Shown here: piece after piece, positions 12,042 through 35,303 of the stretch
Position numbering within the stretch: position 1 is the first letter of the stretch
Layout of the letters: each line of letters starts with the position of its first letter
NCBI GenBank assembly: GCA_903907745.1
Contig: CAIVPF010000035.1
Span: forward strand, 7,215 to 71,214
Origin: an uncultured Cytophagaceae bacterium
GTDB taxonomy: Bacteria > Bacteroidota > Bacteroidia > Cytophagales > Spirosomataceae
DNA: 64,000 nucleotides
Reading direction: 5' to 3'
Translations under genes and position numbers: made by a program
Notes under the pieces: generated by a model
What the model saw: the letters and a program-made list of their open reading frames with translations, nothing else
Databases searched by the model: none
What the model was told of the DNA's origin: nothing

Positions 12042-12113
12042 TCTTCGGTTTTTACCTTGATAAATGTAAAAAATATCAGATATTTGAAATCGATATTTTA
12101 ACACGCAAAGAAA

Positions 12114-13271: not shown

Positions 13272-13334
13272 GTTGTGCGTCAAATTTGATTGAAAATTGC
13301 CACCTTTGCTGTTTATTTTAAATCAAATCCAAAC

Positions 13335-14861: not shown

Positions 14862-15083
14862 TTAGGTAATAAGTAATAGGTATTAGGTAATAAGTAATAG
14901 GTATTAGGTATTAGGTAATAGGTAACAGGTATTAGGTAACAGGTAATAGGTATTAGGTAACAGGTAACAGGTAATAGGTAGCAGGTAATAGGTAACAGGT
15001 AATAGGTAGCAGGTAATAGGTAGCAGGTGATAGGTAGCAGGTAATACTTATTACTTATTACTTAATACCTAATAAATACCTAA
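14862..15083. repeat. Heptamer tandem array with inverted arm: 26 x AGGTAAT-like units (14864-15045), then about 5 inverted units (ATTACTT/AATACCT)
   Basis: Read directly: units AGGTAAT, AAGTAAT, AGGTATT, AGGTAAC, AGGTAGC, AGGTGAT in exact 7-nt register; ends TTAGGTA...TACCTAA; lies between convergent guaA and pepT. Confidence 0.97.
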
Positions 15084-16351
15084 CTATGTAAACTAGAAGT
15101 AAAAAGGTAAGCTAAATAAATCACGGTTTCCGTTGCCTTTTGCATGTCTTGGACCGAAACCCACTCTTGTTTGGAATGGAAGGCGTGTTCCCCTGCAAAA
15201 ATATTTGGACAGGGTAATCCCATGAAGGTCAGTCGGGAGCCATCTGTTCCTCCTCGAATGCTCTTTGTCTCTGGGGTGATCCCCGCCATTTTCATCGCTC
15301 TAATAGCTAAATCGATACATGCTGGATGGTCTTTTAGGATTTCATGCATGTTGCGATACTGTTCTGTTTGAGTAAATGTTGCGCTGCTACCGGGATAATT
15401 TCGTAAAACTTTGGCGCTTAATTTTTTCAAGAAATCTCCGTATTCACTCAGTTTTTCGGTTTTAAAATCCCGCAAAATAAAATCGATTTGGGCGGTTTCT
15501 ACGGTGCCTTGAATCTGGACAGGATGTATGAATCCTTCCATGTCCTCGGTGGATTCAGGGCAAAGTCGGTCTTTGGGTAAGGATTGCACGATTTCGCTGG
15601 CTATTTTGATGGCACTTTCCATGCGGCCTTTGGCAAAACCAGGATGTTGGGATACCCCTTCGATGTGAATATGAAAGCCATCGGCTGAAAAGTTTTCGTT
15701 TTCGAGGTGGCCTCTTTTTTCACCGTCTAAGGTATAGCCGTATTTTGCATTTATTTTTTGGATATCGATGTGATCGGTTCCGCGTCCTATTTCCTCGTCG
15801 GGCGTAAAAACGATCGAAATGGGCCCATGAGGGACGTCAGGATGTGACTTCCAAAAGGCCACCGCATCCATAATTTCCGCCACGCCTGCTTTATTGTCTG
15901 CTCCTAAAAGTGTTAATCCACTCGCTGTGATAATGTCATGACCGATTTGCTCGCCTAAATCGGGATGTTCGACTAGACGAATGCAAACCGAGGGATCATC
16001 AGGCAGCACAAGATCCTGTCCTTGATAATCCATATGAACGATGGGTTTGACATCCTTTCCGGAACAATCTGGCGATGTGTCCATATGAGCACAAAAACAC
16101 AGACCTGGGATGACCTTCGATACATTGCTGGGAAGATGTGCATACACGTAGCCATGTGCATCGATATGCGCGTTTGAAATGCCCATTTCTTGTAGTTCTT
16201 GAACTAATAGAATTCCTAAGTCTTTTTGTTTTTCAGTGCTCGGACTTAGCTCAGAATTGGGATCTGATTGGGTGTCAATTTGGACATAAGCAAGAAATCG
16301 TACTTTTGAACTAAATAAATATTGTTCCAATAAATCAGAGATGTTGGGCAT
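15080..16351 (-). CDS. pepT: Peptidase T (tripeptide aminopeptidase, M20B)
   Basis: CAHMDTS, LLGADNKAG, FTPDEEIGRG, HPGFAKG, IRGGTDG, GEHAFHS. Confidence 0.96.
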   Translation of the reverse strand: MPNISDLLEQYLFSSKVRFLAYVQIDTQSDPNSELSPSTEKQKDLGILLVQELQEMGISNAHIDAHGYVYAHLPSNVSKVIPGLCFCAHMDTSPDCSGKDVKPIVHMDYQGQDLVLPDDPSVCIRLVEHPDLGEQIGHDIITASGLTLLGADNKAGVAEIMDAVAFWKSHPDVPHGPISIVFTPDEEIGRGTDHIDIQKINAKYGYTLDGEKRGHLENENFSADGFHIHIEGVSQHPGFAKGRMESAIKIASEIVQSLPKDRLCPESTEDMEGFIHPVQIQGTVETAQIDFILRDFKTEKLSEYGDFLKKLSAKVLRNYPGSSATFTQTEQYRNMHEILKDHPACIDLAIRAMKMAGITPETKSIRGGTDGSRLTFMGLPCPNIFAGEHAFHSKQEWVSVQDMQKATETVIYLAYLFTSSLHS

Positions 16352-16531
16352 AAAACGCGTATTTTTTTGAAATATCTTAAGAAAAAATTGTGTTAAATGA
16401 ATTTATTTTTTTAGGATTCATAAAGGTAATTAACCTTTCAAAATAACATATTATATTAGTGCTTCGAAATGGTCGTTTAGTTCTACACTTGGCTTAATTT
16501 CAAAACCAAAAGGTCAATATATTATTACATT

Positions 16532-17803
16532 ATGTCTCAAACTGCGCTTATAAACTTAGATGGAAAATCATTTGAGTTACCTACATTCGAAGGTACTGAA
16601 AACGAGAAAGCCATCGACATTGCAAAACTACGTGATTTATCAGGTTTTGTAACCTATGATCCTGGCTATAAAAATACAGGAGCTACCAAAAGCGCCATCA
16701 CGTATTTAGATGGGGAAGAAGGAATTCTTCGCTACCGAGGTTATAGCATAGAAGAATTAGCGGATCAGTCGACATTTATTGAGGTAGCTTATTTGTTGAT
16801 TCACGGAGAATTACCTACCGTAGCTGAATTGGCCAATTTTGAAAAACAAATTCAATCCTATACGGTCGTTAATGAGGAATTATTGGCCATCGCCAATGCT
16901 TTTCCTGCGAGTACACACCCGATGTGTGTTTTAGCTGCGGTGGTTGGTGCCATGTCCGCCTTTCATTCCACGGATGAGGCGGGTGATGATGAGGAAAATA
17001 TTTTATGTTTATTAGCCACTTTGCCTGTTATGGCCACTTGGCATTACAAAAAGTCCTTGGGTGAAGCGGTCAATCAAGTGGACAAAAGTTTAGATTATTG
17101 CTCTAGCTTTCTTCAAATGATGTTTGGTAAAAAAGGCGATGCTTATCTTGCTGATCCGATTGTAGCCAAAGCACTAAATAAATTATTGATTTTACATGCG
17201 GATCATGAGCAAAACTGCTCGACTTCCACAGTTCGTCTCGTAGGCTCTTCTCATGCCAATCTATTTGCTTCCATTTCGGCAGGTATCAATGCGCTTTGGG
17301 GTCCATTGCACGGAGGCGCGAACCAGGAAGTGATCGAGATGTTAGAGGCAATTAAAGCCGATGGGGGTGATACTGCCAAATATGTGACCATGGCCAAAGA
17401 TAAAAATTCAGGTTTCCGCCTGATGGGTTTTGGTCACCGGGTATACAAGAACTTTGATCCTCGCGCCAAAATCATAAAAGTGGCGGCAGATGATGTTTTG
17501 AAGGCATTAGGCGTGAATGATCCCGTATTATCCATTGCCCAACATTTAGAAGATGCCGCGCTTCATGACGACTATTTTGTCGCTCGTAAATTATATCCCA
17601 ATGTGGATTTCTATTCAGGTATTATTTATCGCGCTTTAGGTATCCCTACAAACATGTTTACCGTGATGTTCGCCATCGGTCGCCTGCCAGGTTGGATCGC
17701 CCAATGGAAAGAACTGCGGACAAACAAGGAGCCTATTGGTCGTCCTCGTCAGATATATACAGGAGCCACCTTGCGGTCTTTTGTAGCTATTTCCGAGCGA
17801 TAA
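16532..17803 (+). CDS. gltA: Citrate synthase
   Basis: YDPGYKNT, LHADHEQNCSTS, GPLHGGAN, LMGFGHRVYKNFDPR, PNVDFYSG. Confidence 0.98.
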   Translation: MSQTALINLDGKSFELPTFEGTENEKAIDIAKLRDLSGFVTYDPGYKNTGATKSAITYLDGEEGILRYRGYSIEELADQSTFIEVAYLLIHGELPTVAELANFEKQIQSYTVVNEELLAIANAFPASTHPMCVLAAVVGAMSAFHSTDEAGDDEENILCLLATLPVMATWHYKKSLGEAVNQVDKSLDYCSSFLQMMFGKKGDAYLADPIVAKALNKLLILHADHEQNCSTSTVRLVGSSHANLFASISAGINALWGPLHGGANQEVIEMLEAIKADGGDTAKYVTMAKDKNSGFRLMGFGHRVYKNFDPRAKIIKVAADDVLKALGVNDPVLSIAQHLEDAALHDDYFVARKLYPNVDFYSGIIYRALGIPTNMFTVMFAIGRLPGWIAQWKELRTNKEPIGRPRQIYTGATLRSFVAISER

Positions 17804-17820
17804 TTATCTGTAATTTTTTT

Positions 17821-17849
17821 AAGGCCTTCCTCATGGAGGGCTTTTTTTT
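17821..17849 (+). terminator. Rho-independent terminator after gltA
   Basis: AAGGCCTTCC-TCAT-GGAGGGCTTT stem (with G.U pairs) running into an 8-T tract, 17 nt after the stop. Confidence 0.85.
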
Positions 17850-17877
17850 GATTTAACCACTAATAATTCGATTTTCT

Positions 17878-18381
17878 ATGCTGAAAAAACAGCTTAGGTT
17901 TCCATGCCTTCTATTTTTCAATCTTTTATTCCTTTTATTACCCGCTTTTGGCCAGCAACAAAAAGGAAAGGCTACGTATTATCACCAGCTTTTTTGGGGA
18001 AGAAAAACCGCCAATGGAGAAATTTATCATCCCTATAAATACACGGCGGCGCATAGGAATTTTCCAATGGGTACCTGGTTGGAACTCTATTTTCCCAAAA
18101 CAGAAAAGAAGACCTTTGTCCGAATCAACGATCGAGGGCCCTTTCGAAAAGGCGCCATCCTCGATATCTCCATGGCCGCGGCGAAGGAGATTGGCCTAAT
18201 TAAAGACGGTATCGCCATGGTTCATATTCGAATCATACCCAAGGCCGAAATCAGTGATTCCTTGATGAAGTCTTGGGCCATCCGAGATTCTTTATCAGTC
18301 GCCGAACATCCTAAGCCCCTTAAAAAAATGAAGAAAAAAGCCCGAAAGCGAAAAAAAAGAAGTCGATCTAGGGCAAAATAA
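17878..18381 (+). CDS. rlpA: Septal ring lytic transglycosylase RlpA family protein
   Basis: GKATYY, KTANGE, TAAHR, VRINDRGPF, ILDIS (double-psi beta barrel); basic C-terminal tail. Confidence 0.85.
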   Translation: MLKKQLRFPCLLFFNLLFLLLPAFGQQQKGKATYYHQLFWGRKTANGEIYHPYKYTAAHRNFPMGTWLELYFPKTEKKTFVRINDRGPFRKGAILDISMAAAKEIGLIKDGIAMVHIRIIPKAEISDSLMKSWAIRDSLSVAEHPKPLKKMKKKARKRKKRSRSRAK

Positions 18382-19615
18382 TTTCGATTCTACGGTTAAT
18401 TTTACGCGCTTCCGCGGTAATTGCCTTCATTTTTGGTTTGCTATTGCCGAACGCAATGGTTTTTATCCGATCACTGGAAATCCCTTGATCGACCAAATAC
18501 GTTTTTACCGAATTCGCACGTCTATCTGAAAGGCTAAGATTCGCCTGTGCATTTCCCACTTCGTCGGTATGTCCATGAATTTCAATGGATTTACTCGGAT
18601 TTTGAAATAAATAAGAAACCAAATCCAATAAACATTGGGGAGTGACAAAGGGTAAATCTGATTTATTATTTTCAAATTGGATGTCTTCAAAATGCAGTTT
18701 TTGAAACTCGATGGGCGCTGGTTTGGTAATTAGGATTGGTGCCTGGATGATCGGAGGTTTTTTGAGCCAACAAAATTCGGGAATCTCAATCGATTGAATT
18801 TGAATATCCTGAACTTCATCAACAACTTTTCTGGATATAAAATAAGAATTCGGGTTTATACCTTCTGAAAAACCTGCGTCATTCGAAGGGCTATTGATTT
18901 CTTTAATGGCGACCGAAGCTGACCACACTTTCTCATCCCAGAGGCTTTGGTGAAAATCCAATCCGCCTTTTCCCCCTTTTTGATTGGTCGAAAAGACCAA
19001 AATCCCCCTTTCATCCATGAAATAAGGCCCTTGTTCATCTTCAGGACTATTAATTTGCTTGCCCAAATTTTTAGGTATGCCCCATTTTCCGTCTTCTGTT
19101 CGTTCGGTGAACCAAATATCTCGTTTTCCTTCGCCACCAGGTCGATCGGAGGAGAAGAATAATGTACTGCCATTTGAATTGAGTTGGGGTTGACCTTCCC
19201 AGTCATGCGAATTCACTAAATAGCCTAGGTTTTTAGGTCGGGTCCAAGAACCATCGACCCAGGTACATTCGTATAAATCACAGCCACCGAAGGAATTTGG
19301 ATAGTCACAACCTGAAAAAATTAAATGAAGCCCATCCTTAGAAAGGGTAGGCGTACCTTCATTATTTTCTTGATTTAATTCCTCGATGGGCCTAGGGGAT
19401 TCGAATTTTTCCCCATTCCAGGAAGCAACAAAAATTTCTTCATCTGATTTTACCCCTTTTCGAACCGTTAAGAAAAGTTCTTTTCGAGCAGCTGAATAAA
19501 TCGGGAAGTATTGGGTTCTAAATACGTTCACCTCCTTGATGGGTGCGGAGTGAATAAGAATGCTATCCCCTGGAGAAAAAATGGTTAGGAAAGGGAAAAG
19601 CCATAATCCTATCAT
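18368..19615 (-). CDS. OmpA-family protein with PD40 (WD40-like) repeats
   Basis: Repeated W..P.NLG..VNS...E..P / FSSDRPGG motifs; C-terminal EIHGHTDEVG...NLSLSDRRANSV...NRRIE. Confidence 0.85.
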   Translation of the reverse strand: MIGLWLFPFLTIFSPGDSILIHSAPIKEVNVFRTQYFPIYSAARKELFLTVRKGVKSDEEIFVASWNGEKFESPRPIEELNQENNEGTPTLSKDGLHLIFSGCDYPNSFGGCDLYECTWVDGSWTRPKNLGYLVNSHDWEGQPQLNSNGSTLFFSSDRPGGEGKRDIWFTERTEDGKWGIPKNLGKQINSPEDEQGPYFMDERGILVFSTNQKGGKGGLDFHQSLWDEKVWSASVAIKEINSPSNDAGFSEGINPNSYFISRKVVDEVQDIQIQSIEIPEFCWLKKPPIIQAPILITKPAPIEFQKLHFEDIQFENNKSDLPFVTPQCLLDLVSYLFQNPSKSIEIHGHTDEVGNAQANLSLSDRRANSVKTYLVDQGISSDRIKTIAFGNSKPKMKAITAEARKINRRIEIILP

Positions 19616-19618
19616 CGC

Positions 19619-20266
19619 TTACGGAATTTGTAAAAACTTATGCGTTTGAACGGAAATTTGCCAAGTTGGATTTTCCTTCACAAATGAAACAATTAATTCA
19701 TTCATTTCCACCTGTTTAGACCATTCAGGTTGTAAATAATAATGGGCCTTCTTTGGGATTTTCTCCACAAATGTTTCCGCCCACGGAATATCTGATTTAT
19801 GAAAAACCACGACTTTTAATTCATCCACCATGGAATATATCGCCGGATTCGGATCCTTGAATTTTTTAGGGGAAAAACAAATCCAATCCCAATGTCCCGT
19901 CAATGTCTCGCAAACTCCTGAAGTTTCGATGTGGGTTCTGAAGCCAGCCTCCTGTAATGCTTCGGTCAGTGGAAATAAATCATGCATCAAAGGTTCCCCG
20001 CCTGTGATGACCACTAGGCGGCCAGGATGCGCTGAGGCCTCCTGAACCAAGGTTTGAACGCTTTTTTTAGGGTGGGTGTCGGTGGGCCAACTTTCCTTCA
20101 CATCACACCAATGACAGCCCACATCGCAACCGCCCAAGCGAATGAAATAGGCCGCATGTCCTTGGTATTTCCCTTCTCCTTGAATCGTGTAAAAAGATTC
20201 CATTACAGGGTATTCAAAAACATCTCTTTTTGCGACTGATTTTATATCTTTGACGATTGATTGCAT
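19619..20266 (-). CDS. queE: 7-carboxy-7-deazaguanine synthase (radical SAM)
   Basis: ESFYTIQGEG, GCDVGCHWCD (CxxxCxxC), VITGGEP, SVQTHKFL. Confidence 0.93.
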   Translation of the reverse strand: MQSIVKDIKSVAKRDVFEYPVMESFYTIQGEGKYQGHAAYFIRLGGCDVGCHWCDVKESWPTDTHPKKSVQTLVQEASAHPGRLVVITGGEPLMHDLFPLTEALQEAGFRTHIETSGVCETLTGHWDWICFSPKKFKDPNPAIYSMVDELKVVVFHKSDIPWAETFVEKIPKKAHYYLQPEWSKQVEMNELIVSFVKENPTWQISVQTHKFLQIP

Positions 20267-20352
20267 AAGGACTTAAAATTCTAAGTAAAATTAAGGCTTG
20301 ATTTGTAATTTAACTAATAAGAAATCGTTCTTCCTAGCAAGAAAGAATATTT

Positions 20353-20640
20353 ATGCCAGCAGCTCGTTACTTTTTAATGGTCGTCACTTGTCTATTTTTA
20401 TTGACAGGTTTGAGTAGTTGCTGGTCTGCACGTTGTCCTCGAACGACCTGTCGGGTGCGGGTGGAACATCGGCATGGGGATTTATATTATCGTCCGCGCG
20501 AAGCATGGTCTTGGATGTGGACACCTCGTTATCAGCATGTTCGGAATCCGAATACGCCCGTATACGCACAGAATAAAGCAAAAATTTGGAGACGAATTTT
20601 TAAACCAGGTACGCCTGTTACGCAAAAGAAAGCTCGATAA
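20353..20640 (+). CDS. Small basic lipoprotein of unknown function
   Basis: Hydrophobic leader plus lipobox LSSC; fills the gap between divergent queE and nadE, 3 nt before the nadE ATG. Confidence 0.7.
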   Translation: MPAARYFLMVVTCLFLLTGLSSCWSARCPRTTCRVRVEHRHGDLYYRPREAWSWMWTPRYQHVRNPNTPVYAQNKAKIWRRIFKPGTPVTQKKAR

Positions 20641-20643
20641 TTC

Positions 20644-22551
20644 ATGTCGCAACTGACCATCGGTTCCGGGGTTTTAAATCAAACGCCATTAGACTGGGAA
20701 GGAAATTTCCTTCGCATCGTTGCGCTTGTCGAAGAAGCCCAAAAATCCTCTGTGAAGCTTTTATGTTTGCCAGAATTATGTTTGACCGGATATGGCTGTG
20801 AGGATCAATTTTTAAGCCCTTTTACCTCTCAAAAAGCATGGGAATATACCTTAAAATTAAAGGCTTATTCGAAGGATATTGCATTTTTAGTGGGTTTACC
20901 CCTGCCTTTTGAAGGCGCTTTATATAATGTCGCGGCATGTATTTCAGGTGGAGAAATCGTAGCATTGATTCCCAAACAGCATTTAGCGGATGATGGAGTT
21001 CATTATGAACCGCGTTGGTTTAGCCCCTGGCCCGCCGGAAAAAGAGAAACACATCTGGGGATTCCCATCGGGGATTATCGGATCCAGATACATGAATGGA
21101 TTTTGGGCGTGGAAATCTGTCAGGATGCATGGGAAGGCTCGCGTCGTCCCGCTCATGCGTTAGCCGACCGAGGAGTATCGATCATTTGTAATCCCACAGC
21201 TTCGCATTTTGCGTTTGGGAAGGCGAAGGTGCGTCAACAATTATCCCTCGAAGGTGCCGCCATTTGTCAAGGTGCCTATGTTTTTGCCAATTTATTGGGG
21301 AATGAATCTGGGCGGGTGATTTTCGACGGAGATGCCTATATCGTGCATGATGGCCAAATCTTGGCTCAAAATTCACGTTTTTCCTTTCAAGATCATCAAT
21401 TAATCACCGCTCAAATAGATCTAGCTCCCATGTATTCATCTGAAGCAGATGTCGTGATTGCGAAGCCTTTTGAGATCACTGATTCAATTTCTAAGGAGCT
21501 CACAAAATCAGTTGAGGCCTGGGAGACTAATGCCGAATGCCTGAAAGAAGAAGAATTTGAACGCGTTGTTCGTTTGGGACTTTGGGATTATATGCGGAAA
21601 TCGTATTCTAGGGGATTTGTCGTATCTCTTTCGGGAGGTGCGGATTCCTCCGCCATCGTGAGTTTATGTTTTTTAGCTTTGCAAGCGGCAGAAAAAGAAT
21701 TGGGTTTTGAGGGGATCAAAAAACGTTTGGCCTATATTCCTTGGATTTCCGCTGTCACGCAGGTAGCTGATCTTCAAAAAAGACTTTTAACCACCTTATA
21801 CCAAGGCACGGTTAATTCCTCCCTTCAAACCCGTTCCTCAGCGAAAGTCTTAGCGGACGGCATTGGAAGTACGCATTATGAATTAGAAATCGATGCGATC
21901 GTGGGTGAATATCGGGAGCTCATCGAACAGGCGATCGGTCGGGCTTTAACCTGGGAGCAGGATGATATTACTCTTCAAAACGTGCAATCGAGGGTTCGGA
22001 GCCCAAGTGCCTGGATGTTAGCTAATATCAACCAAGCCTTATTATTAGCTACCTCGAATCGTTCCGAAGCCAGTGTGGGATATGCCACGATGGATGGCGA
22101 TACGTCGGGTTCTATTTCGCCGATTGCCGGGATTGATAAAAGTTTTTTACGTACTTGGTTAGCCTGGGCCGAAGCCAAAATTCCTGCTTTGCATCAAGTA
22201 AATTCCTTAGAGCCGAGTGCGGAATTAAGACCTTTGGCAACAAAGCAAGTAGATGAAGAGGATCTGATGCCCTATCCGATTTTAAATGCCTTAGAGCGCT
22301 GGGCTTTTTACGAGCGAAAAAGTCCTTCAGAATGCCAAGAGGTATTATTTTTGACTTATGGAGCTCATTTTTCCAAAGAAAAATTGTCCGAATTTGCCCA
22401 TCGATTCTTTAGACTTTGGGCAAGAAACCAATGGAAACGCGAACGCTATGCGCCAGGTTTCCATGTAGATGAATATAGCTTAGATCCCAAATCCTGGCTA
22501 CGCTTCCCAATTCTTTCCGCTGGATTAGAAAAAGATTTACCCCCTGTATGA
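20644..22551 (+). CDS. nadE: Glutamine-dependent NAD(+) synthetase
   Basis: N-terminal nitrilase domain (PEL, PKQHL, EICQD); SLSGGADSS, QNVQSR, NRSEASVGYATMDGD, PSAEL. Confidence 0.96.
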   Translation: MSQLTIGSGVLNQTPLDWEGNFLRIVALVEEAQKSSVKLLCLPELCLTGYGCEDQFLSPFTSQKAWEYTLKLKAYSKDIAFLVGLPLPFEGALYNVAACISGGEIVALIPKQHLADDGVHYEPRWFSPWPAGKRETHLGIPIGDYRIQIHEWILGVEICQDAWEGSRRPAHALADRGVSIICNPTASHFAFGKAKVRQQLSLEGAAICQGAYVFANLLGNESGRVIFDGDAYIVHDGQILAQNSRFSFQDHQLITAQIDLAPMYSSEADVVIAKPFEITDSISKELTKSVEAWETNAECLKEEEFERVVRLGLWDYMRKSYSRGFVVSLSGGADSSAIVSLCFLALQAAEKELGFEGIKKRLAYIPWISAVTQVADLQKRLLTTLYQGTVNSSLQTRSSAKVLADGIGSTHYELEIDAIVGEYRELIEQAIGRALTWEQDDITLQNVQSRVRSPSAWMLANINQALLLATSNRSEASVGYATMDGDTSGSISPIAGIDKSFLRTWLAWAEAKIPALHQVNSLEPSAELRPLATKQVDEEDLMPYPILNALERWAFYERKSPSECQEVLFLTYGAHFSKEKLSEFAHRFFRLWARNQWKRERYAPGFHVDEYSLDPKSWLRFPILSAGLEKDLPPV

Positions 22552-23318
22552 TGTTATTACTCGTAGATATAGGAAATACCGACATCGTGTTCGGTTTTTA
22601 TTCCGAAAGTACCTGGCAAACGATTTTGCGAACTCCGACGCACCAGCCTTGGAGTCCTATAAAATTGCAAATGTGGCTTGTCAAGGAATTAAGTGAAAAA
22701 GGTTTAGTCCATTTACGTCCTGATTCGATCTTGATAAGTTCGGTGGTACCTTCTATTTTACCTCAAATTCAAAAGGGACTGGACATTTGGTCCGGTAAAA
22801 ATGCCCGAATCATGGGCCCTAAAATCTATTCGAATTTAGCGATTCAAGTATTAAGTCCCGATGAAATTGGTTCAGATTTGGTGGCCAATTCCGTATACGC
22901 GCATGCGCATTACGATTCTGATGTGTTGATCGTCGACTTCGGCACGGCCCTGACCTTTACCTTATTAGGCGAGGATGGAAAGATGCAGGGAGTATCCATC
23001 GCGCCAGGACTAAAAACGGCTGTAAAATCGCTCTTTTCTCAAACGGCTCAATTACCCGAAGTTCCCCTCGAAATGCCGAATTCGGCCCTTGGTTTTGATA
23101 CCGTATCCGCCATACAATCCGGAATTTTATGGGGATATGTGGGCATGGTGAAGGAAATGATTTTTCAAATCAAAGCCGAAAAAGGACCTCAGATTAAGGT
23201 ATTGGCCACCGGTGGCTTGTCTTCGATTTTGACGCCTTTGGAATCTTCTTTTGATGAGGTGAATAAGTTAATTACCCTGGAAGGTTTACGCATCGTCTTA
23301 CAGGATTTAGAAAAATAG
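22548..23318 (+). CDS. coaX: Type III pantothenate kinase
   Basis: VDIGNTD, ISSVVP, IGSDLVAN, VDFGTALT, IAPG, ATGG. Confidence 0.95.
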   Translation: MMLLLVDIGNTDIVFGFYSESTWQTILRTPTHQPWSPIKLQMWLVKELSEKGLVHLRPDSILISSVVPSILPQIQKGLDIWSGKNARIMGPKIYSNLAIQVLSPDEIGSDLVANSVYAHAHYDSDVLIVDFGTALTFTLLGEDGKMQGVSIAPGLKTAVKSLFSQTAQLPEVPLEMPNSALGFDTVSAIQSGILWGYVGMVKEMIFQIKAEKGPQIKVLATGGLSSILTPLESSFDEVNKLITLEGLRIVLQDLEK

Positions 23319-25065: not shown

Positions 25066-25104
25066 GGTTTATTTCGATGAATATTCGTAATTTTAAAAGA
25101 TTGT

Positions 25105-27366: not shown

Positions 27367-27369
27367 TTT

Positions 27370-28752
27370 ATGAGGAATATGAAATTAAAAGGATTTTTAT
27401 TGGGTGTTTTTGGATTGTTTCTATCGTTTGCTGCGTTTTCGCAGGAGGAGGCCAAACCGTCTTTATTAGATAAAATTATTGCTAAAATCGATAATCATTA
27501 CATTTTGAAGTCAGAGATCGAGGCGCAGTACCAACAGTATTTAGCCAGTGGCCAAGCGAATTCGCCCGATCGTTGTCAAATCTTGGAAAGTTTGGTCGTT
27601 AATAAATTAATGTTAGCCAAAGCTGAAATCGATTCCGTGATTGTGGAAGACAAGCGGATTGAAATGGAATTAAATTCTAGGATGGACCAAATGGAACAGC
27701 AATATGGTTCGGCTAAAAATATCATTGAGGCCTTCGGTAAACCGATCTCAACGATGAAGGAAGAATTAAGAGCTTCCCTAAAAGAGCAATTGACCGGCCG
27801 TAAAATGCAAGATAAAATTACGGATGCGGTAACGATCACCCCGAAGGAAGTCGCTCAATTTTTCAATAAAATCCCAACGGATTCCTTGCCTTATTTGCCT
27901 GCCGAAGTGGAAGTGGGTCATATTGTTCGTTTAGCCCAACCGAACAAAAATCAAAAAGAGGAATTAATTAGTCGTTTGTTGGATTACCGCAGACGCATCG
28001 AAAAAGGCGAAAACTTTGAAGATTTGGCCAAATTATATTCGGAGGATTTAGGGAGTGGAAAACGTGGAGGTGATTTAGGATTTTCGAAAAGAGGGGCCAT
28101 GGTGGCGCCATTTGAGGCAGCAGCGTTGAAGTTGAAACGCAATATGATGTCCGATGTCGTCGAAAGTGAATTTGGTTTTCACTTGATTCAGTTGCTAGAT
28201 ATTCGTGGACAGGAATACCATGCCCGTCATATTTTATTGCGCCCAGATTATCAAAAATTAGATCTCACAGACCCTACGAAATATTTAGATAGTATACGGA
28301 TTTTGATTCAACGGGATTCCTTGAAATTTGATCGCGCCGCGCGTGATTTTTCTCAGGATAAAGCCACACAAGACGCAGGTGGCTTAATTATGGATATGAA
28401 TACGAAGTCCTATCGGATTCCTTTTGATGGGACCATGGAACCTGGTTTGTATTTTTCCATCGATTCCATGAAGGTGGGAACCTTGTCTACACCGATTCCA
28501 TACCGTACAGAAGATGGCCGCAGCGCTGTTCGCATCCTGTTTTTTAAGGCAAAACACCCGCCACATTTCGCGAATTTAAAGGATGATTATCAGAAAATTG
28601 CGAACATCGCGATTTCCCGGAAGAAAAATGACGCGATTGAAAAATGGTTTTTGAAGGCAAAGGAAGATGTGTTTATCTACATCGATGATGAGTATAAAAG
28701 TTGTAATACCTTAGGCACACAAACCGCTGAGAATAAAGAGTCTAGTCAGTAA
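27370..28752 (+). CDS. surA: SurA-like peptidylprolyl isomerase
   Basis: LDKIIAKID N-domain; FEDLAKLYSEDLGSGKRGGDLGF, ESEFGFHLIQ, RHILLRP. Confidence 0.7.
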   Translation: MRNMKLKGFLLGVFGLFLSFAAFSQEEAKPSLLDKIIAKIDNHYILKSEIEAQYQQYLASGQANSPDRCQILESLVVNKLMLAKAEIDSVIVEDKRIEMELNSRMDQMEQQYGSAKNIIEAFGKPISTMKEELRASLKEQLTGRKMQDKITDAVTITPKEVAQFFNKIPTDSLPYLPAEVEVGHIVRLAQPNKNQKEELISRLLDYRRRIEKGENFEDLAKLYSEDLGSGKRGGDLGFSKRGAMVAPFEAAALKLKRNMMSDVVESEFGFHLIQLLDIRGQEYHARHILLRPDYQKLDLTDPTKYLDSIRILIQRDSLKFDRAARDFSQDKATQDAGGLIMDMNTKSYRIPFDGTMEPGLYFSIDSMKVGTLSTPIPYRTEDGRSAVRILFFKAKHPPHFANLKDDYQKIANIAISRKKNDAIEKWFLKAKEDVFIYIDDEYKSCNTLGTQTAENKESSQ

Positions 28753-28754
28753 CC

Positions 28755-29717
28755 ATGGAAGACGTTCGCTTAGCTGCCTCATTTTTTGAAGATGTTCAAA
28801 GGCTAAAAAAGGCCATTGCTTCGCGTGTCGTCGGTCAGGAAAAAACAATTGATTTATTATTAAACGCCTTGTTTTCGGGGGGTCATTGTTTGTTAGTCGG
28901 TGTTCCCGGCCTTGCCAAAACCCGCCTTGTTCAGACTTTGGCTGCCTTGGTGGATTTGGAATACAAACGAATTCAATTCACACCTGATTTAATGCCTTCT
29001 GATGTAATCGGGACAGAATTATTAGACCAAGATCGAAATTTTAAATTTAGTCGGGGACCTATTTTTGCGAATCTGATCCTCGCCGATGAAATCAATCGTA
29101 CGCCCCCTAAAACCCAGTCGGCACTTTTGGAGGCGATGCAAGAAGAAACCGTTTCCGTGGCTGGAATAAGTTATGAATTGCCCAAGCCATTTTTCGTTTT
29201 AGCTACCCAAAATCCGATCGAACAGGAAGGAACTTATCCGCTCCCTGAAGCACAATTAGATCGATTTTTGTTCATGATTCAGCTGGATTATCCGAGTTTT
29301 GCCGAAGAGGTACAGTTGGTTCGGATGACTGAAAAAACGGCTTTATTAGAAACACAACAGGCTATTTTGCATGCCAATGTGCTAATGAATTATCAAGAAT
29401 TAGTCAAACGAGTACCTGTTTCAGATTTAGTGGTGGAAACGGCGGTTCGATGGGTTCAACAAACGCGAGTCGGTCATGAAAATACCTCAGCCATTGCCAA
29501 AGAATTCATTACTTGGGGGGCTGGTCCTCGCGCTTCACAAAATTTAATTTTATCAGCTAAGTGCCATGCGCTCATGCACGGACGCTATTCACCGAATGTA
29601 GAAGATGTACGAGAAGTGGCGGTTCCAGTCCTTCAGCATCGTATAATACCTAATTACAAAGCGGATTCACAAGGCCTTAGCGCTGCGGATTTGATACGCC
29701 AATTGGTGCAAGATTAA
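28755..29717 (+). CDS. MoxR family AAA+ ATPase
   Basis: GVPGLAKT (Walker A), [56 protein letters not shown]. Confidence 0.96.
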
Positions 29718-30508
29718 ATGGCCACAGGCGCTTTAATGCCCGGATAAGGGTCGTAATTCTCCAGCGTGAAATCTTCGTAGGTAAACTCAAAAATGTCTTT
29801 AACGTTCGGATTAATCTTCATCGTAGGTAATGGCCGAGGCGTTCTGCTTAATTGCAATTCGACCTGTTCCATGTGATTGCTATATAAATGCGTATCGCCA
29901 CCGGTCCAAACGAAGTCACCAAGGCCTAAATCACATACCTGAGCCACCATCATGGTCAATAGCGCATAACTTGCGATGTTAAACGGAACGCCTAAAAATA
30001 CATCAGCGGAGCGCTGGTATAACTGACAGGATAATTTCCCATCGGCTACATAAAATTGGAAAAACGCATGACAAGGCATCAAAGCCATTTTGGGTAATTC
30101 TGCTACGTTCCAGGCACTGACGATGATACGTCGGGAATCTGGATTCGTTTTTAGGGTATGAATCACATCTTTGATTTGGTCGATGACCTGTCCATCGGGA
30201 CCTTCCCAAGTCCTCCATTGCTTGCCATAAACCGGGCCTAAATCCCCGTTTTCGTTCGCCCATTCATCCCAAATGCTGACATTGTTTTCCTTCAAATAGG
30301 CGATATTCGTTTCCCCTTTTAAAAACCACAATAATTCATAGATGATGGATTTTAAATGCGTTTTTTTGGTGGTAACCAATGGAAAACCTTCGGCTAAATT
30401 AAAGCGCATTTGATACCCAAAAACACTGGTGGTTCCCGTTCCTGTACGATCAGATTTAAAGGTGCCCTGTGTTTTGATGTGGCTTAAAAGGTCGAGATAT
30501 GCTTGCAT
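29714..30508 (-). CDS. thyA: Thymidylate synthase
   Basis: [46 protein letters not shown]. Confidence 0.99.
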
Positions 30509-30509
30509 A

Positions 30510-30947
30510 TTAGGCGATAAAAGGAGTGTCGTTAAGGAGTAAAGTGTGGGTGATGAGGGAACTTGGTTCCAATTGGGCTGTCGCCGAGCAATATTTTTCC
30601 ATGGACATTTGAATCGCCCTCAGCGCTTTTGATCCATCGATTTGGCCCTTTAATTCGAATTGAATATGGATGGTACGAAAGGGTGTTTTTTCTGTTCCTT
30701 CGATTTTCTCACGAGTTCCCGAGAGGCGTATTTGAAAATCTTCGATGATTTGACGTTGTTTTTTCAAAATCAAAATCACGTCTATCGCTGTACAGCCTCC
30801 CAATCCCATCAAGAGTAATTCCATCGGCCGAGCACCTGCATTATGGCCACCGATTCCCTCGGCGGCATCGATGTGTACCGGCACGGGCGAACTCCCAAGT
30901 GCTTCAAAGTGGAAATCTTGATCGATACGTTTTAAAACTACTTCCAT
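30510..30947 (-). CDS. OsmC/YhfA family protein
   Basis: [26 protein letters not shown]; start set at ATG 30947, just after the phoD stop. Confidence 0.9.
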
Positions 30948-30948
30948 G

Positions 30949-32265
30949 TTATTTGAGGGAATTGGATGAGATGTCATGATGCCAAATTTCGACACCCTTT
31001 TCATCGTTTAGCACGATGCGCAATTTACGATCTTTTAAAGGTCCTGACACGGATATGGTCGAAAAGGCCCGTTTTTGCGTCATGGTGCCCGCTACTAAAA
31101 CTTCGTTGGCATCTAATTTATGCGGAACGGCTGGACCAGCGGTCATCGGTGAAACGGTTAAATCAAATAGGGGATAAGTTCCCGGTCTTTCTAATTTCCA
31201 AAGGCTAGACGTATGCCGGTCGCCCGAAAGAAACACGACACCAGGGATTTTCCGATTTGTGATTTCTTTTAATAATTGATTCCGCTCTTGATCATAATTG
31301 GCCATATTTTCGAAGATTTTGGCCGGGTTTAATACCTGTCCGCCATTAACGACGATTTTGAAACTAGCCCGACTACTCGTCAGGGCATCCAATAACCAAT
31401 TCATTTGTTTTTGCCCAAAATAATCTTTTGCCGGATCATTTAGGTCATTGGGAGCTTTGAACCAGCGATCGTCCATGAGGAAAAATTCCACATCCGACCA
31501 GGTAAATTGGCCCGTCATCGCTTCATTCGGAAACACAAAATTTGGATTTCCCCAATACAATTTAAATAATTCGAGGGCCGTATGTTTTAATACAAAAGAG
31601 CGATCGGCGTCATTCGGACCATAATCATGGTCATCCCAAATCGCGTAATGGTGCGTGTTTGCCAATAATGGCTGCAAAGATGCCTGACTACGCGTGTGGT
31701 CATTGCGATGCATCATGCCCGTGCGAGTATTCCAATCAGGTTCGCGATAATAGAAATTATCCCCACCCCAAAGCATAAAATCGGGTTTTTTGGCATAAAT
31801 GGCTTGATAAATTTCATCGGCGCCGCCATAAGGTCGGCCGGGGCGGTCGGTTGCTTCTTCGTTGATATAATTACAAGACCCAAAGGCAAAACTAAAATCG
31901 GGTGGATCATTTCGGTATTGCCACAGGCTTTGGCTTTGAAATTCCAAGGGATAGGCAAAATTCATTTTTTTACCGTCGATCCATACCTCATATTCGTATT
32001 TCTTGCCCATGCTGACTTGGTCGGCGATGGCCTTGGCGATGAATCCTTGTGATTTTTGCGTCTGAATGGGATCTGTTTTCAGGATTGCTTGGGTTGATTT
32101 TTGCCCTTTCTCCCAGTAACTGATTTCTACCTTCGCCGCTTTTTGCGTTTGGACCCAAATCAGCACTTCTTTCATTTCGGAATAGCCAAGCATGGGACCA
32201 CTTTTGATTTGACCGAATAGGCTTCCAAGGGATAGAAAGCAAAGAAATGTGAACAAGTATTTCAT
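30949..32265 (-). CDS. phoD: Alkaline phosphatase D family protein
   Basis: Signal peptide; FAFGSCN, LWGGDNFY, IWDDHDYG, LMDDRW, FLSGDRH. Confidence 0.8.
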   Translation of the reverse strand: MKYLFTFLCFLSLGSLFGQIKSGPMLGYSEMKEVLIWVQTQKAAKVEISYWEKGQKSTQAILKTDPIQTQKSQGFIAKAIADQVSMGKKYEYEVWIDGKKMNFAYPLEFQSQSLWQYRNDPPDFSFAFGSCNYINEEATDRPGRPYGGADEIYQAIYAKKPDFMLWGGDNFYYREPDWNTRTGMMHRNDHTRSQASLQPLLANTHHYAIWDDHDYGPNDADRSFVLKHTALELFKLYWGNPNFVFPNEAMTGQFTWSDVEFFLMDDRWFKAPNDLNDPAKDYFGQKQMNWLLDALTSSRASFKIVVNGGQVLNPAKIFENMANYDQERNQLLKEITNRKIPGVVFLSGDRHTSSLWKLERPGTYPLFDLTVSPMTAGPAVPHKLDANEVLVAGTMTQKRAFSTISVSGPLKDRKLRIVLNDEKGVEIWHHDISSNSLK

Positions 32266-32284
32266 AAGATGATCATTTAAAAGC

Positions 32285-32292
32285 TATCTTTG
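32285..32292 (+). promoter_or_regulatory. Bacteroidota -7 promoter box (TATCTTTG) upstream of lysA
   Basis: Exact TAnnTTTG, 18 nt upstream of ATG 32311. Confidence 0.55.
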
Positions 32293-32310
32293 TCGCTTAA
32301 TTTAAAACCC

Positions 32311-33546
32311 ATGGCTTATTATTCCATTCAAGGTATTCCATTGACATCGCTAGCTAAGGAGTTTGCTACACCCTTATATGTGTATGATGCCGACAAAATT
32401 AGGGAAAAAATTTCAGTTCTTAGAAGCTCTTTTCAAGGTTTTCCTTTGTCGATTAAATATGCCTGTAAAGCAAATACCAATCTAGCCATTTTGCGGCTCA
32501 TGCTTGCGAATAAGGTTGATTTGGATGTGGTGTCTCCCCAAGAATTGGAATTAGGATTAATGGCCGGGTATGAAGGTTCTCAAATCACTTTTACGCCTAG
32601 TGGGGTTGATTTTTCTGAAATCGAGTTTGCGGTCTCCAAAGGGGCCATGGTGAATTTAGATAATTTGTCTGTGCTCGAGAAATTTGGTCAGGCTTATGGG
32701 AATTCAGTTTCATGCCTTATTCGCATTAAACCCCATGTATTTGGTGGCGGAAATGCAAAAATCATGACGGCGCATCCGGAATCTAAATTTGGAATTTCCA
32801 TTCATCAAAAGGAGGAAATTCTAGCAATTGTCCAGCGATATGGGATTCAGGTCTCTGGTTTGCATCAGCATACTGGCTCTGATATCAAAGACGGAAAGAC
32901 GTTCCAACAAGCCGCCTCTGCACTCTTTGATTTTGCAAAGGATTTCAAGGATTTGGAAATCATCGACTTAGGCGGTGGTTTTAAAGTACCTTATTCTCCC
33001 GAAGACCCGGGCGTGGATATGCAGGAGGTAGGAGGATTAATGAGTCGGGCCTTTTTAGATTTTTGCGCAAGCTACGGTCGGCCCTTGCGGCTTTGGATCG
33101 AACCGGGGAAATTTTTGGTTTCCGAGGCTGGGACTTTTTTGGCCCAGGCCACTGTGGTGAAAAAAGACCCTATAAAGACCTTTTTGGGGATAAATACGGG
33201 GTTAAATCACCTTATTCGGCCCATGATGTATGGATCCTATCATTACATCTTCAATGCATCGAATACGAATTCATCTGAGCAGGAAAATTATCGGATTGTA
33301 GGAAATATCTGCGAAACAGATACTTTTTCCTTTGATTACGATGGCAACCAAAACGAGCGGATGTTAAATAAGGTCCAAGAAGGCGACGTCATCGCCCTTG
33401 CCAATGCCGGCGCCTACGGATTTACTATGGCCTCCCACTATAATTCAAGATTTCTGCCAGCGGAAGTACTCATTGATCAAGGCAAAGCCGTTATCATTCG
33501 GAAGAGAGAGACATTGGATGATTTAACTAGAAACCAAGTTTTTTAG
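32311..33546 (+). CDS. lysA: Diaminopimelate decarboxylase
   Basis: TPLYVYD, KYACKAN (PLP Lys), SKFGI, HTGS, DLGGGF, EPGKFLV, GNICETD, GAYGFTMASHYN. Confidence 0.96.
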   Translation: MAYYSIQGIPLTSLAKEFATPLYVYDADKIREKISVLRSSFQGFPLSIKYACKANTNLAILRLMLANKVDLDVVSPQELELGLMAGYEGSQITFTPSGVDFSEIEFAVSKGAMVNLDNLSVLEKFGQAYGNSVSCLIRIKPHVFGGGNAKIMTAHPESKFGISIHQKEEILAIVQRYGIQVSGLHQHTGSDIKDGKTFQQAASALFDFAKDFKDLEIIDLGGGFKVPYSPEDPGVDMQEVGGLMSRAFLDFCASYGRPLRLWIEPGKFLVSEAGTFLAQATVVKKDPIKTFLGINTGLNHLIRPMMYGSYHYIFNASNTNSSEQENYRIVGNICETDTFSFDYDGNQNERMLNKVQEGDVIALANAGAYGFTMASHYNSRFLPAEVLIDQGKAVIIRKRETLDDLTRNQVF

Positions 33547-33719
33547 GTAATTGGTATCAGGTAATAGGTAATAGGTATCAGGTAATAGGTAATAAGTAAT
33601 AGGTAATAAGTAATAGGTACCAGGTATAAAGTAATAGGTACCAGGTATAAAGTAATAGGTATCAAGTAAGATGTATTACCTATTACTTATTACCTATTAC
33701 CTGATACCTATTTACCTAA
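33543..33719. repeat. Second heptamer array with inverted arm: 18 x AGGTAAT-like units (33545-33670), ATGT spacer, 6 inverted units (ATTACCT/ATTACTT/GATACCT/TTTACCT)
   Basis: Read directly; same consensus and TTAGGTA...TACCTAA ends as 14862-15083; lies between convergent lysA and the ATP-grasp gene. Confidence 0.97.
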
Positions 33720-35146: not shown

Positions 35147-35291
35147 AGGCTAATTTGAATTATTGCTTGATAGTCATTTAATTTAAAATTTTATTTATCA
35201 AATGATTTTTAAAAGCGTTACTATTTTTTAATTTTTCCAAAATAGGTCTTTTTTATATTGGAAATTTACTATTTCCGATGAATTTTGATTG

Positions 35292-35299
35292 TATTTTTG
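35292..35299 (+). promoter_or_regulatory. Bacteroidota -7 promoter box (TATTTTTG) upstream of ogt
   Basis: Exact TAnnTTTG, 4 nt upstream of ATG 35304 (would be near-leaderless); AT-rich context lowers confidence. Confidence 0.4.
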
Positions 35300-35303
35300 C
35301 GCC

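What the first reader, a model, noticed from the sequence alone, without database searches (positions are those of the whole stretch)
14862..33719. Candidate repeat-element family: two heptamer fold-back elements with identical ends, placed on the stop codons of convergent genes
Seen: 14862-15083 (222 bp) and 33543-33719 (177 bp) share a unit (AGGTAAT consensus), an architecture (long forward arm, short inverted arm) and 7-bp termini TTAGGTA...TACCTAA. For pepT, lysA and the ATP-grasp gene the TAG stop lies inside the terminal repeat. For guaA the TAG is 3 nt outside it. All four flanking genes end in TAG, versus 14 of 54 genes in the window by my manual tally. These are the only two of 12 convergent junctions with a gap over 30 bp. 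I see no target-site duplication and no transposase or RT nearby. Established: heptamer STRR repeats of heterocystous cyanobacteria and REP/BIME elements of Proteobacteria also sit at gene 3' ends, so the concept has precedent. I do not recognise this unit or architecture as a named family. Inference: a non-autonomous element, or a bidirectional 3'-end module that each incoming transcript reads as G-rich arm then complementary arm.
Basis: partly seen in the sequence, partly recalled or inferred. Interest (0 to 1): 0.75.

Follow-up and report, generated by a model that had tools for sequence, protein, structure and literature searches.

The report
Opposed heptamer microsatellites at gene ends
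The two "fold-back elements" are real, but each is a pair of fast-changing 7-base tandem repeat arrays, one attached to the stop codon of each of two convergent genes. This kind of bacterial repeat is already known but unexplained, and here it sits where relatives carry an ordinary transcription terminator.

Summary
14862-15083 and 33543-33719 are AGGTAWY heptamer arrays, each followed by a short inverted arm. They fill the whole gap between convergent genes, and all four stop codons are TAG at or in register with the array ends.

The mobile-element reading is not supported. There is no target-site duplication, no fixed ends or length, and no transposase, RT or RAYT among 34 ORFs checked.

Near relatives (97-98% protein identity) carry very different arm lengths at the same junctions. 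More distant relatives carry other C-poor heptamers, REP-like palindromes, a canonical bidirectional terminator, or nothing. In one relative each arm stays with its own gene after another gene separates them.

Across at least 120 loci from many phyla, the G-rich strand of such arrays starts at a same-strand stop codon (82 cases against 11). Opposed arrays meet head-on (42 against 3). Loci of one genome share the same unit variant (14 of 16 pairs).

These are heptanucleotide microsatellites of the STRR/LSSR type, a known and unexplained class. The likely role here is a hairpin at the 3' ends of both convergent genes, replacing the terminator. That role is inferred, not shown.

The parts
13290..14858 (+). 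guaA (GMP synthase). Its stop TAG is at 14856-14858, one 7-nt period upstream of the TAG of the first array unit.
14862..15045 (+). Array 1, guaA-sense arm: about 26 units of AGGTAAT/AGGTATT/AGGTAAC/AGGTAGC/AAGTAAT. It is G-rich and C-poor on the + strand.
   Evidence: 28 nt (4 units) longer in the independent contig L001
15046..15083 (-). Array 1, pepT-sense arm: about 5 units read on the - strand (AAGTAAT, AGGTATT). It contains the pepT stop (CTA 15080-15082).
   Evidence: the same arm is about 200 nt long in 98% relatives L167-L171
15080..16351 (-). Peptidase T (M20) gene.
32290..33546 (+). Orn/DAP decarboxylase (lysA-like) gene. Its stop TAG (33544-33546) lies inside the first unit.
33543..33673 (+). 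Array 2, lysA-sense arm: about 18 units, with a 21-nt higher-order period.
33674..33719 (-). Array 2, ATP-grasp-sense arm: about 6 units. It contains the ATP-grasp stop (CTA 33716-33718).
33570..33712 (.). 39-bp perfect inverted repeat (33570-33608 with 33674-33712), the core of the predicted hairpin.
33716..35146 (-). Circularly permuted ATP-grasp gene.

Best explanation
Each region is two opposed heptanucleotide microsatellite arrays (STRR/LSSR type), not one inserted element. One array is anchored on the stop codon of each convergent gene, with its G-rich, C-poor strand in the sense of that gene.

Shown: the arrays change length in steps of 7 nt, as replication slippage would produce, and they change fast enough that 97-98% relatives differ several-fold in arm length. 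Shown: loci of one genome share one unit variant.

Because this lineage uses one unit family at all four gene ends, the two arms are complementary. A transcript coming from either gene would fold into a long A/U-rich hairpin that spans the whole intergenic gap.

Inferred: in this very compact genome the hairpin takes over the job of the canonical bidirectional terminator that 85-86% relatives carry between guaA and pepT. That job would be stopping or pausing read-through, blocking 3' exonucleases, or providing an RNase III site. Array length would then be largely free to drift.
For: - Period-7 arrays, far more than chance.
- A 28-nt (4-unit) indel between two assemblies of the same locus.
- lysA junction arm lengths (G-rich/C-rich nt): window 130/45, L159 95/212, L126 287/75, L127 39/159, L128 72/180, L161 21/98, L165 21/32.
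- Other C-poor heptamers at the same junction in 79-82% relatives: AAGAGTT, AAGAGGT, GAGTAGA.
- In L167 the pepT arm and the guaA arm each stay on their own stop codon, although a DUF6855 gene lies between them.
- guaA/pepT junction in L173/L174 (85-86%): no heptamers, a canonical A-tract/GC-stem/U-tract terminator (z = -5.7 and -4.3) and TAA stops. Aquirufa (76%) has GC hairpins and a TAA stop on pepT.
- Cross-phylum rule in at least 120 loci: the 5' end of the G-rich strand lies within 12 nt of a same-strand stop in 44 arrays, against 6 on the 3' side. For 142 other period-7 arrays in the same loci the counts are 38 against 5.
- Adjacent opposed arrays meet head-on 42 times and back-to-back 3 times.
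- Hairpin folds: z = -9.0 and -2.9. Unit order in the two arms is mildly mirrored (4 of 200 and 8 of 200 unit-order shuffles fold as well).
- Metatranscriptome contigs reach from lysA and from the ATP-grasp gene into the array edges.
- Prior literature describes the same class and the same position bias: PMC4692102 and PMC4679880.
Against: - There is no U-tract after the hairpin in either direction. The + RNA has U-run, hairpin, AAUAAA; the - RNA ends in an A-run. It is therefore not a canonical intrinsic terminator.
- In other genomes the two arms often have different units and cannot pair, so pairing is not a general requirement of the class.
- The mirror-order signal is weak (z about -1.8).
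- No 3'-end mapping exists. The RNA evidence consists of unstranded contigs, possibly with DNA carry-over, and mostly from other loci.
- Ten other convergent junctions in the window manage with gaps of 29 nt or less and no hairpin.
- The reason for the G-rich-sense polarity is unexplained.
Confidence: 0.45

Rival explanations
1. Same identity (slippage-prone heptamer microsatellites anchored at gene ends) but no function. The arrays would be tolerated or selfish DNA that accumulates where nothing is disrupted, and the hairpin is a by-product of one genome-preferred unit lying in opposite orientations.
For: - Extreme length and sequence turnover at one junction, with 'empty' alleles (L147/L148 have a 48-nt gap; L130/L151 have TAATG overlapping the next gene).
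- In other genomes the arms often have different units.
- Stop triplets in units occur at the level composition predicts.
- Other convergent junctions in the window need no spacer.
Against: - Strong strand polarity relative to the adjacent gene (82 against 11) and head-on arrangement (42 against 3) are not expected from neutral slippage.
- The array occupies exactly the place of a lost canonical terminator.
- Arrays persist at the lysA junction across lineages of 79-98% protein identity.
Confidence: 0.3
2. The arrays act through their single-stranded, C-poor sense RNA or their G-skewed DNA, not through the hairpin. Options include binding sites for an RNA-binding protein (S1, Csp or Hfq type), R-loop-prone G-rich non-template DNA that stalls RNA polymerase once the ribosome has left at the stop codon, or, read in antisense, C-rich G-poor Rho-loading sites that shield the gene from incoming convergent transcription.
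For: - The sense strand is G 30%, A 34%, T 29%, C 6%.
- Anchoring directly at the stop codon and polarity relative to the gene.
- Genome-specific unit variants (14 of 16 pairs, p = 5e-5) fit a sequence-specific partner.
- RNA-binding candidates were proposed for TAACTGA repeats in PMC4679880.
Against: - Units are very diverse between genomes, so no universal binding site exists.
- Anchoring is just as strong in cyanobacteria (14 of 34). They lack Rho (my own knowledge), so Rho cannot be the general cause.
- No experimental data bear on this.
Confidence: 0.15
3. A non-autonomous mobile element (MITE or REP/BIME-like) with TTAGGTA/TACCTAA ends, mobilised in trans and inserted at TAG stops of convergent genes.
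For: - The same unit family at two loci 19 kb apart, and genome-specific unit variants elsewhere.
- At guaA/pepT the whole stop-to-stop interval differs from relatives, including TAA to TAG at both stops.
- Gene order differs next to the arrays in L167 and L168.
Against: - No TSD and no constant length, ends or internal sequence.
- Arms separate with their genes.
- Arms with different units in other genomes.
- Indels in multiples of 7.
- No transposase, RAYT or RT among 34 ORFs.
- Similar arrays occur in many phyla with graded unit changes inside a single array.
Confidence: 0.06
4. Assembly artefact: the repeats were created or inflated by short-read assembly.
For: Unitigs break in the arrays, and copy number differs between assemblies.
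Against: - The same arrays with the same flanks occur in several independent assemblies and samples.
- The class is present in complete or chromosome-scale records, for example CP078104.1, AP018227.1 and OY762007.1.
Confidence: 0.02

Closest known systems
G-rich heptamer repeats GGGAATC / GGGGA(C/T)T of Xanthomonas and Nostoc (Rehm et al. 2015, PMC4692102)
   Same: Intergenic 7-nt tandem arrays. [quoted passage not shown] They are under-represented between divergent genes. Inverted copies that can form stem-loops exist. They sit between the same genes in relatives, but with large length and sequence variation. They are transcribed and not linked to IS elements. Function is unknown.
   Different: The unit here has only GG, so there is no canonical three-tetrad G-quadruplex. 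There is no preference for 4 units (5 to 26 here). The lineage is Cytophagales. Here the arrays fill the whole convergent gap and replace a terminator.
STRR (short tandemly repeated repetitive) heptamers of heterocystous cyanobacteria and heptanucleotide LSSRs (Mazel 1990 from my own knowledge; Mrazek 2007 as cited in PMC4679880)
   Same: Period 7, dispersed, genome-specific units, copy-number variation attributed to polymerase slippage. AGGTAAT arrays lie beside a TTGGTCA (STRR2-type) array in a Nostocaceae locus (L008) and grade into GGGGAAT units (L004, L017).
   Different: The unit is not one of the named STRR1-3 units, and the host is a freshwater Cytophagales bacterium.
TAACTGA direct repeats of Beggiatoaceae, Cyanobacteria and Bacteroidetes (MacGregor 2015, PMC4679880)
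   Same: Heptamer arrays with a patchy cross-phylum distribution that includes Bacteroidetes. Indels come in 7-nt increments. Contigs end in the repeats. One dominant unit per genome.
   Different: In the Beggiatoaceae genome (BOGUAY), TAACTGA sets are mostly 2-6 copies just upstream of start codons; arrays of up to 43 copies occur in some Bacteroidetes and Cyanobacteria. The arrays here are long, lie after stop codons, and are paired head-on.
REP/BIME elements
   Same: Extragenic, at gene 3' ends, hairpin-forming, proposed to stabilise mRNA or aid termination. True GTAG-tagged REP-like palindromes occupy the same lysA junction in 79-82% relatives.
   Different: REPs are discrete 20-40 bp palindromes with a conserved tag and a cognate RAYT. 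The arrays here are tandem 7-mers of variable number, with no tag and no RAYT seen.
Bidirectional intrinsic terminators
   Same: A hairpin placed between convergent stops, in the same position as the canonical terminator of L173/L174.
   Different: The stem is long and A/U-rich, with no flanking A-tract/U-tract in the orientation needed.

Membership tests
Heptanucleotide tandem repeats (STRR / LSSR class) | Head-to-tail repeats of a 7-nt unit, longer than chance | tested here: met
   TRF period 7 with 26.3 and 16.9 copies; 41 matches against 1.24 expected
Heptanucleotide tandem repeats (STRR / LSSR class) | Copy-number polymorphism in multiples of the unit between strains | tested here: met
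   28-nt (4-unit) difference between the window and L001; arm lengths from 21 to 287 nt among relatives
Heptanucleotide tandem repeats (STRR / LSSR class) | Intergenic, G-rich strand next to the 5' neighbour ORF or on the coding strand just after the stop (Rehm 2015) | tested here: met
   All four arms in the window; 44 against 6 and 38 against 5 in other genomes
Heptanucleotide tandem repeats (STRR / LSSR class) | One of the named units (STRR1-3, GGGNATC, TAACTGA) | tested here: not met
   The unit is AGGTAWY/AAGTAAT. It is a member of the general class only, not of a named sub-family.
MITE / non-autonomous transposon | Target-site duplication flanking terminal inverted repeats | tested here: not met
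   Flanks are GAGTAGTTT|...|CTATGTAA and CAAGTTTT|...|TAAAGCAC, with no direct repeat
MITE / non-autonomous transposon | Copies of defined length and internal sequence, with precise empty sites | tested here: not met
   Length and content vary continuously at one site. Alternative occupants are other heptamers, REP-like palindromes or terminators.
REP/BIME | Discrete imperfect palindrome of 20-40 bp with a conserved GTAG/CGTC tag | tested here: not met
   Tandem 7-mers with no tag. Such palindromes are seen only in relatives.
REP/BIME | Cognate RAYT (TnpA-REP) gene in the genome | tested here: inconclusive
   None among 34 ORFs of the window. The rest of the genome was not available.
Canonical intrinsic terminator | GC-rich stem-loop directly followed by a U-tract | tested here: not met
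   The stem is A/U-rich. It is followed by AAUAAA on the + RNA and by an A-run on the - RNA. The consensus scan does not list the arrays.
G-quadruplex-forming heptamer repeats | Four or more runs of at least 3 G | tested here: not met
   Units carry GG only
Rfam RNA families | Match at gathering score | tested here: not met
   No match in the whole window

The most novel reading that the evidence does not exclude
C-poor heptamer arrays anchored in sense orientation on stop codons, meeting head-on between convergent genes and using a genome-specific unit, may form a cross-phylum class of gene-3'-end elements. A sequence-specific or transcription-coupled process would make or maintain them: a unit-specific binding protein, templated synthesis, or R-loop-driven expansion that starts where the ribosome leaves the mRNA. 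In that case they would be a terminator or insulator system parallel to intrinsic and Rho-dependent termination, not just slippage debris.
Probability: 0.2. Interest if true: 0.75.

Novelty: new member of a known kind. Interest (0 to 1): 0.42.

Why it matters
Heptamer tandem repeats have been known in bacteria since 1990 and are the commonest long simple-sequence repeats in prokaryotes, yet their function is still unknown.

This locus is a clean natural experiment. Closely related freshwater Cytophagales carry, in the same stop-to-stop gap, either a textbook bidirectional terminator or a heptamer fold-back. That makes the terminator-substitute hypothesis directly testable.

The survey made here also turns an observation from three genomes into a rule that holds across many phyla. 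The rule has three parts: anchoring on stop codons with sense-strand polarity, head-on pairing, and genome-specific units. Any mechanism must explain all three.

There is a practical side too. These arrays break short-read assemblies and may cause chimeric joins in MAGs.

Tried and rejected
- Rfam at gathering score on the whole window: no match.
- Nanopore or long-read runs holding the locus: none listed.
- Metatranscriptome and metagenome contigs laid on both loci. Depth over the arrays is 30-100 times the flanks, but it comes from many other loci, as the many different loose ends show. Contigs are unstranded, so no 3' ends could be mapped. Only two RNA contigs reach from a flanking gene into an array edge.
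- Idea that the units are selected to carry stop codons in all frames: rejected. 72% of units contain a stop triplet, against 71% for shuffled units.
- Idea that longer PepT homologues (444-482 aa) are read-through into arrays: rejected. The extra residues of the 444-472 aa proteins are N-terminal, a gene-calling effect; the 482-aa one also has internal duplications.
- Rho-loading as the general explanation of polarity: rejected as general, because anchoring is equally frequent in cyanobacterial loci (14 of 34).
- Anti-Shine-Dalgarno pairing of AGGU: dropped, because unselected arrays in the same loci use very different units.
- Selection for arm complementarity: only weak support (unit-order shuffles z about -1.8), and in other genomes the arms often differ in unit.
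Other period-7 arrays in the fetched loci were used as the control, and some of them are the opposing arms of the selected arrays.
- All gene contexts rest on a simple greedy long-ORF call, not on a gene finder.

Full report
**1. The observation**

Both regions are as described. Tandem Repeats Finder reports period-7 arrays at 14863-15046 (26.3 copies, consensus TAGGTAA) with an inverted run at 15042-15074, and at 33544-33661 (16.9 copies) with an inverted run at 33674-33718. Read directly, the termini are TTAGGTA...TACCTAA in both.

The stops are guaA TAG 14856-14858, pepT CTA 15080-15082, lysA-like TAG 33544-33546 and ATP-grasp CTA 33716-33718. The guaA TAG is exactly one period (7 nt) before the TAG of the first full unit (TAGTTTT|TAGGTAA), so it is in register with the array.

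A 13-mer of two units with up to 2 mismatches matches 41 times, all inside the two arrays, against 1.24 expected.

Array 2 contains a 39-bp perfect inverted repeat and folds with z = -9.0. Array 1 folds with z = -2.9.

TAG ends 14 of 55 ORFs. There are 12 convergent junctions, ten of them with gaps from -26 to +29 nt, and the two array junctions with gaps of 221 and 169 nt.

Pfam confirms the four flanking genes. Thirty further ORFs between 4.2 and 41 kb are housekeeping genes, with no transposase, reverse transcriptase or RAYT. No Rfam family matches anywhere in the window.

**2. Origin of the window**

Peptidase T is 76-77% identical to that of Aquirufa species (Cytophagales). A 'Cytophagaceae bacterium' MAG matches 5 kb around lysA at 75% nucleotide identity. 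Lake, river and freshwater metagenomes hold the sequence. The window therefore comes from an uncultured freshwater Cytophagales bacterium.

**3. The same loci in other assemblies**

An independent contig (L001, 99.4% identical) has 28 nt, or 4 units (AGGTAAC AGGTATT AGGTAAC AGGTAAT), more in array 1. Other contigs stop inside the array, and short-read unitigs break there. So the array is real, but its copy number in any short-read assembly is uncertain.

**4. The lysA/ATP-grasp junction in 43 metagenome relatives**

Stop-to-stop G-rich/C-rich arm lengths are:

- window 130/45
- L159 (98% protein identity) 95/212, with an expanded 14-mer ACATCTTACCTGAA
- L126 287/75
- L127 39/159
- L128 72/180 (the GTDB representative L065 carries the same arrangement)
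- L161 21/98
- L165 21/32

So 'long forward arm, short inverted arm' is not a fixed architecture.

At 79-82% identity the same gap holds other C-poor heptamers in the same arrangement. L134 has AAGAGTT/AAGAACT with a long inverted arm. L150 and L152 have AAGAGGT. L131, L135 and L158 have GAGTAGA followed by a canonical terminator. Other alleles hold GTAG-tagged REP-like palindromes (L136, L140, L141, L146) or almost nothing (L147/L148, 48 nt). In L130/L151 the lysA stop overlaps the start of a different gene (TAATG).

**5. The guaA/pepT junction**

Relatives with 98% identical PepT carry a pepT-sense arm of about 200 nt, (AGGTAAT AAGTATT)n, where the window has about 5 units.

In L167 a DUF6855 gene lies between pepT and guaA. 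The long pepT arm stays on the pepT stop, and a separate arm of about 13 units stays on the guaA stop. The two arms therefore belong to their genes, not to one element.

Relatives at 85-86% (L173, L174) have no heptamers. They have a canonical bidirectional terminator (AAAAAGGCGC...GCGCCTTTTT, z = -5.7 and -4.3), and both genes end in TAA. Aquirufa has GC-rich hairpins, and its pepT also ends in TAA.

The arrays are therefore a derived state that replaced a terminator, and the TAG stops came with them. The first unit of each arm overlaps the ancestral stop position.

**6. The same kind of array elsewhere**

The loci come from Cyanobacteria, Bacteroidota, Chloroflexota, Acidobacteriota, Gemmatimonadota, Deltaproteobacteria, Gammaproteobacteria, Clostridia, Saccharibacteria and others. 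They include complete or chromosome-scale records. The chance expectation for this pattern is about 0.02 hits (my own estimate from the pattern's degeneracy and the collection size).

Single arrays grade into other heptamers such as GGGGAAT, AGGTGAC and CAGCTAT. With the G-rich strand taken as +, three regularities appear.

- *Anchoring.* 44 of 112 intergenic arrays start within 12 nt of the stop of an upstream same-strand ORF. Only 6 have a stop abutting the other end (p = 3e-8). Among 142 other period-7 arrays of unrelated units in the same loci the counts are 38 against 5 (p = 2.5e-7).
- *Head-on pairing.* Adjacent arrays of opposite polarity meet head-on (G-rich strand pointing inward from each side) 42 times and back-to-back 3 times (p = 9e-10). 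The two arms often have different units.
- *Genome-specific units.* Loci from one genome share the same one of the four unit variants in 14 of 16 pairs (permutation p = 5e-5).

The G-rich strand is G 30%, A 34%, T 29% and C 6%. With that composition 72% of units contain a stop triplet, exactly what shuffled units give (71%). 'The stop lies inside the terminal repeat' is therefore a by-product of composition plus anchoring.

Anchoring is as frequent in cyanobacterial loci (14 of 34). Cyanobacteria lack Rho (my own knowledge), so Rho cannot be the general cause.

Lake metagenomes and metatranscriptomes show 30-100 times excess depth over the array with many different flanks. The unit is therefore abundant in those communities. 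The pattern also occurs in 29 viral contigs.

These statistics rest on a simple long-ORF call and on loci chosen by my pattern. Some of the 'other' arrays are the opposing arms of the selected ones.

**7. What is known**

According to MacGregor 2015, citing Mrazek 2007 (PMC4679880), heptanucleotide repeats are the most abundant long simple-sequence repeats in most prokaryotic genomes. Polymerase slippage was proposed as the cause.

Rehm et al. 2015 (PMC4692102) described G-rich GGGNATC heptamers in Xanthomonas and Nostoc. Those repeats lie 0-50 bp after the stop on the coding strand, sometimes overlapping it, or next to the 5' neighbour ORF. They are rare between divergent genes and include inverted copies able to form stem-loops. 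They sit between the same genes in relatives but vary greatly in length, are transcribed, are not linked to IS elements, and have no known function.

MacGregor 2015 described TAACTGA arrays in Beggiatoaceae, Cyanobacteria and Bacteroidetes, with 7-nt indels and contigs ending in the repeats.

The window's arrays fit this class in every tested respect except the unit (see Membership tests). They fail the tests for a MITE, for REP/BIME and for a canonical terminator.

**8. How it most likely works**

*Shown.* There are two opposed heptamer microsatellites per junction. Each is anchored on its gene's stop with the G-rich strand in sense. They change in 7-nt steps and share a genome-specific unit.

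*Inferred.* Because all four arms use the same unit family, they pair, and a transcript from either gene folds into a long A/U-rich hairpin spanning the gap. At guaA/pepT this hairpin stands exactly where relatives have a bidirectional terminator. It probably serves as the 3'-end structure for both genes, whether by pausing or stopping read-through, by blocking exonucleases, or as an RNase III substrate. The genome does use canonical terminators elsewhere, for example at 17821-17854 after citrate synthase.

*Against.* There is no U-tract. In other genomes the arms often cannot pair. Mirror order between the arms is only weakly supported. Ten other convergent junctions in the window have no spacer at all.

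A purely neutral origin (confidence 0.30) and a single-strand or R-loop or protein-binding role (0.15) remain open. A mobile element (0.06) and an assembly artefact (0.02) are unlikely.

**9. Verdict**

This is a new member (new unit, new lineage) of a known but unexplained kind of repeat. What is new here is a natural terminator-versus-array contrast between close relatives, and a cross-phylum statement of the anchoring, polarity, head-on and genome-specific-unit rules.

Noticed in passing
window 10832-12104 (- strand): Two adjacent ORFs carry the halves of an FtsX/MacB-type permease: MacB_PCD at 11289-12104 and FtsX at 10832-11287, 1 nt apart. An intact 410-aa paralogue lies at 39795-41027. 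This may be a frameshifted gene, a split gene or a sequencing error.
   Followed up: no
window, all 12 convergent junctions: Convergent genes in this genome usually abut or overlap (gaps from -26 to +29 nt). There is no room for a terminator between them, and the two array junctions are the only exceptions.
   Followed up: partly
window 17821-17854: A canonical intrinsic terminator (10-bp stem followed by a T-run) lies 18 nt after the citrate synthase stop. The genome therefore does use ordinary terminators.
   Followed up: no
L136, L140, L141, L144, L146, L152 (just downstream of lysA): Relatives at 79-82% identity carry GTAG-tagged REP-like palindromes (GTAGAGCCGCGATACTTCGCGGCTCTAC and variants). 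These sit in the same junction, sometimes flanked by short heptamer arrays.
   Followed up: no
L167 3273-4106; L168 3273-3520: In MAGs with 98% identical PepT the gene order changes right at the array. L167 has a DUF6855 gene inserted, and L168 has a GTPase and other genes in place of guaA. This is either rearrangement at the arrays or chimeric joins made by the assembler across the repeats.
   Followed up: partly
L178-L206: The same 26-nt pattern occurs in 29 IMG/VR viral contigs, three of them labelled giant-virus MAGs. Their context was not examined.
   Followed up: no
L089: A lake MAG labelled Klebsiella pneumoniae carries a 109-nt (GGTATTA)n array. The label looks doubtful for a lake-water bin.
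   Followed up: no
window 33547-33669: Array 2 has a higher-order period of 21 nt (5.9 copies, 87% matches), which is three units. Relatives show 14-nt super-units.
   Followed up: no
window 35289-37458: An Ogt-type methyltransferase gene (DNA_binding_1 domain) and a PolX-like gene (HHH_8 plus PHP) lie next to the ATP-grasp gene. In relatives L130/L151 a different gene follows lysA directly, its ATG overlapping the lysA stop (TAATG), and no ATP-grasp end is seen there.
   Followed up: no
L008 7437-7497: A TTGGTCA array (the STRR2 unit, from my own knowledge) lies in the same Nostocaceae locus as an AGGTAAT array. This ties the AGGTAAT type to the classical STRR class.
   Followed up: no
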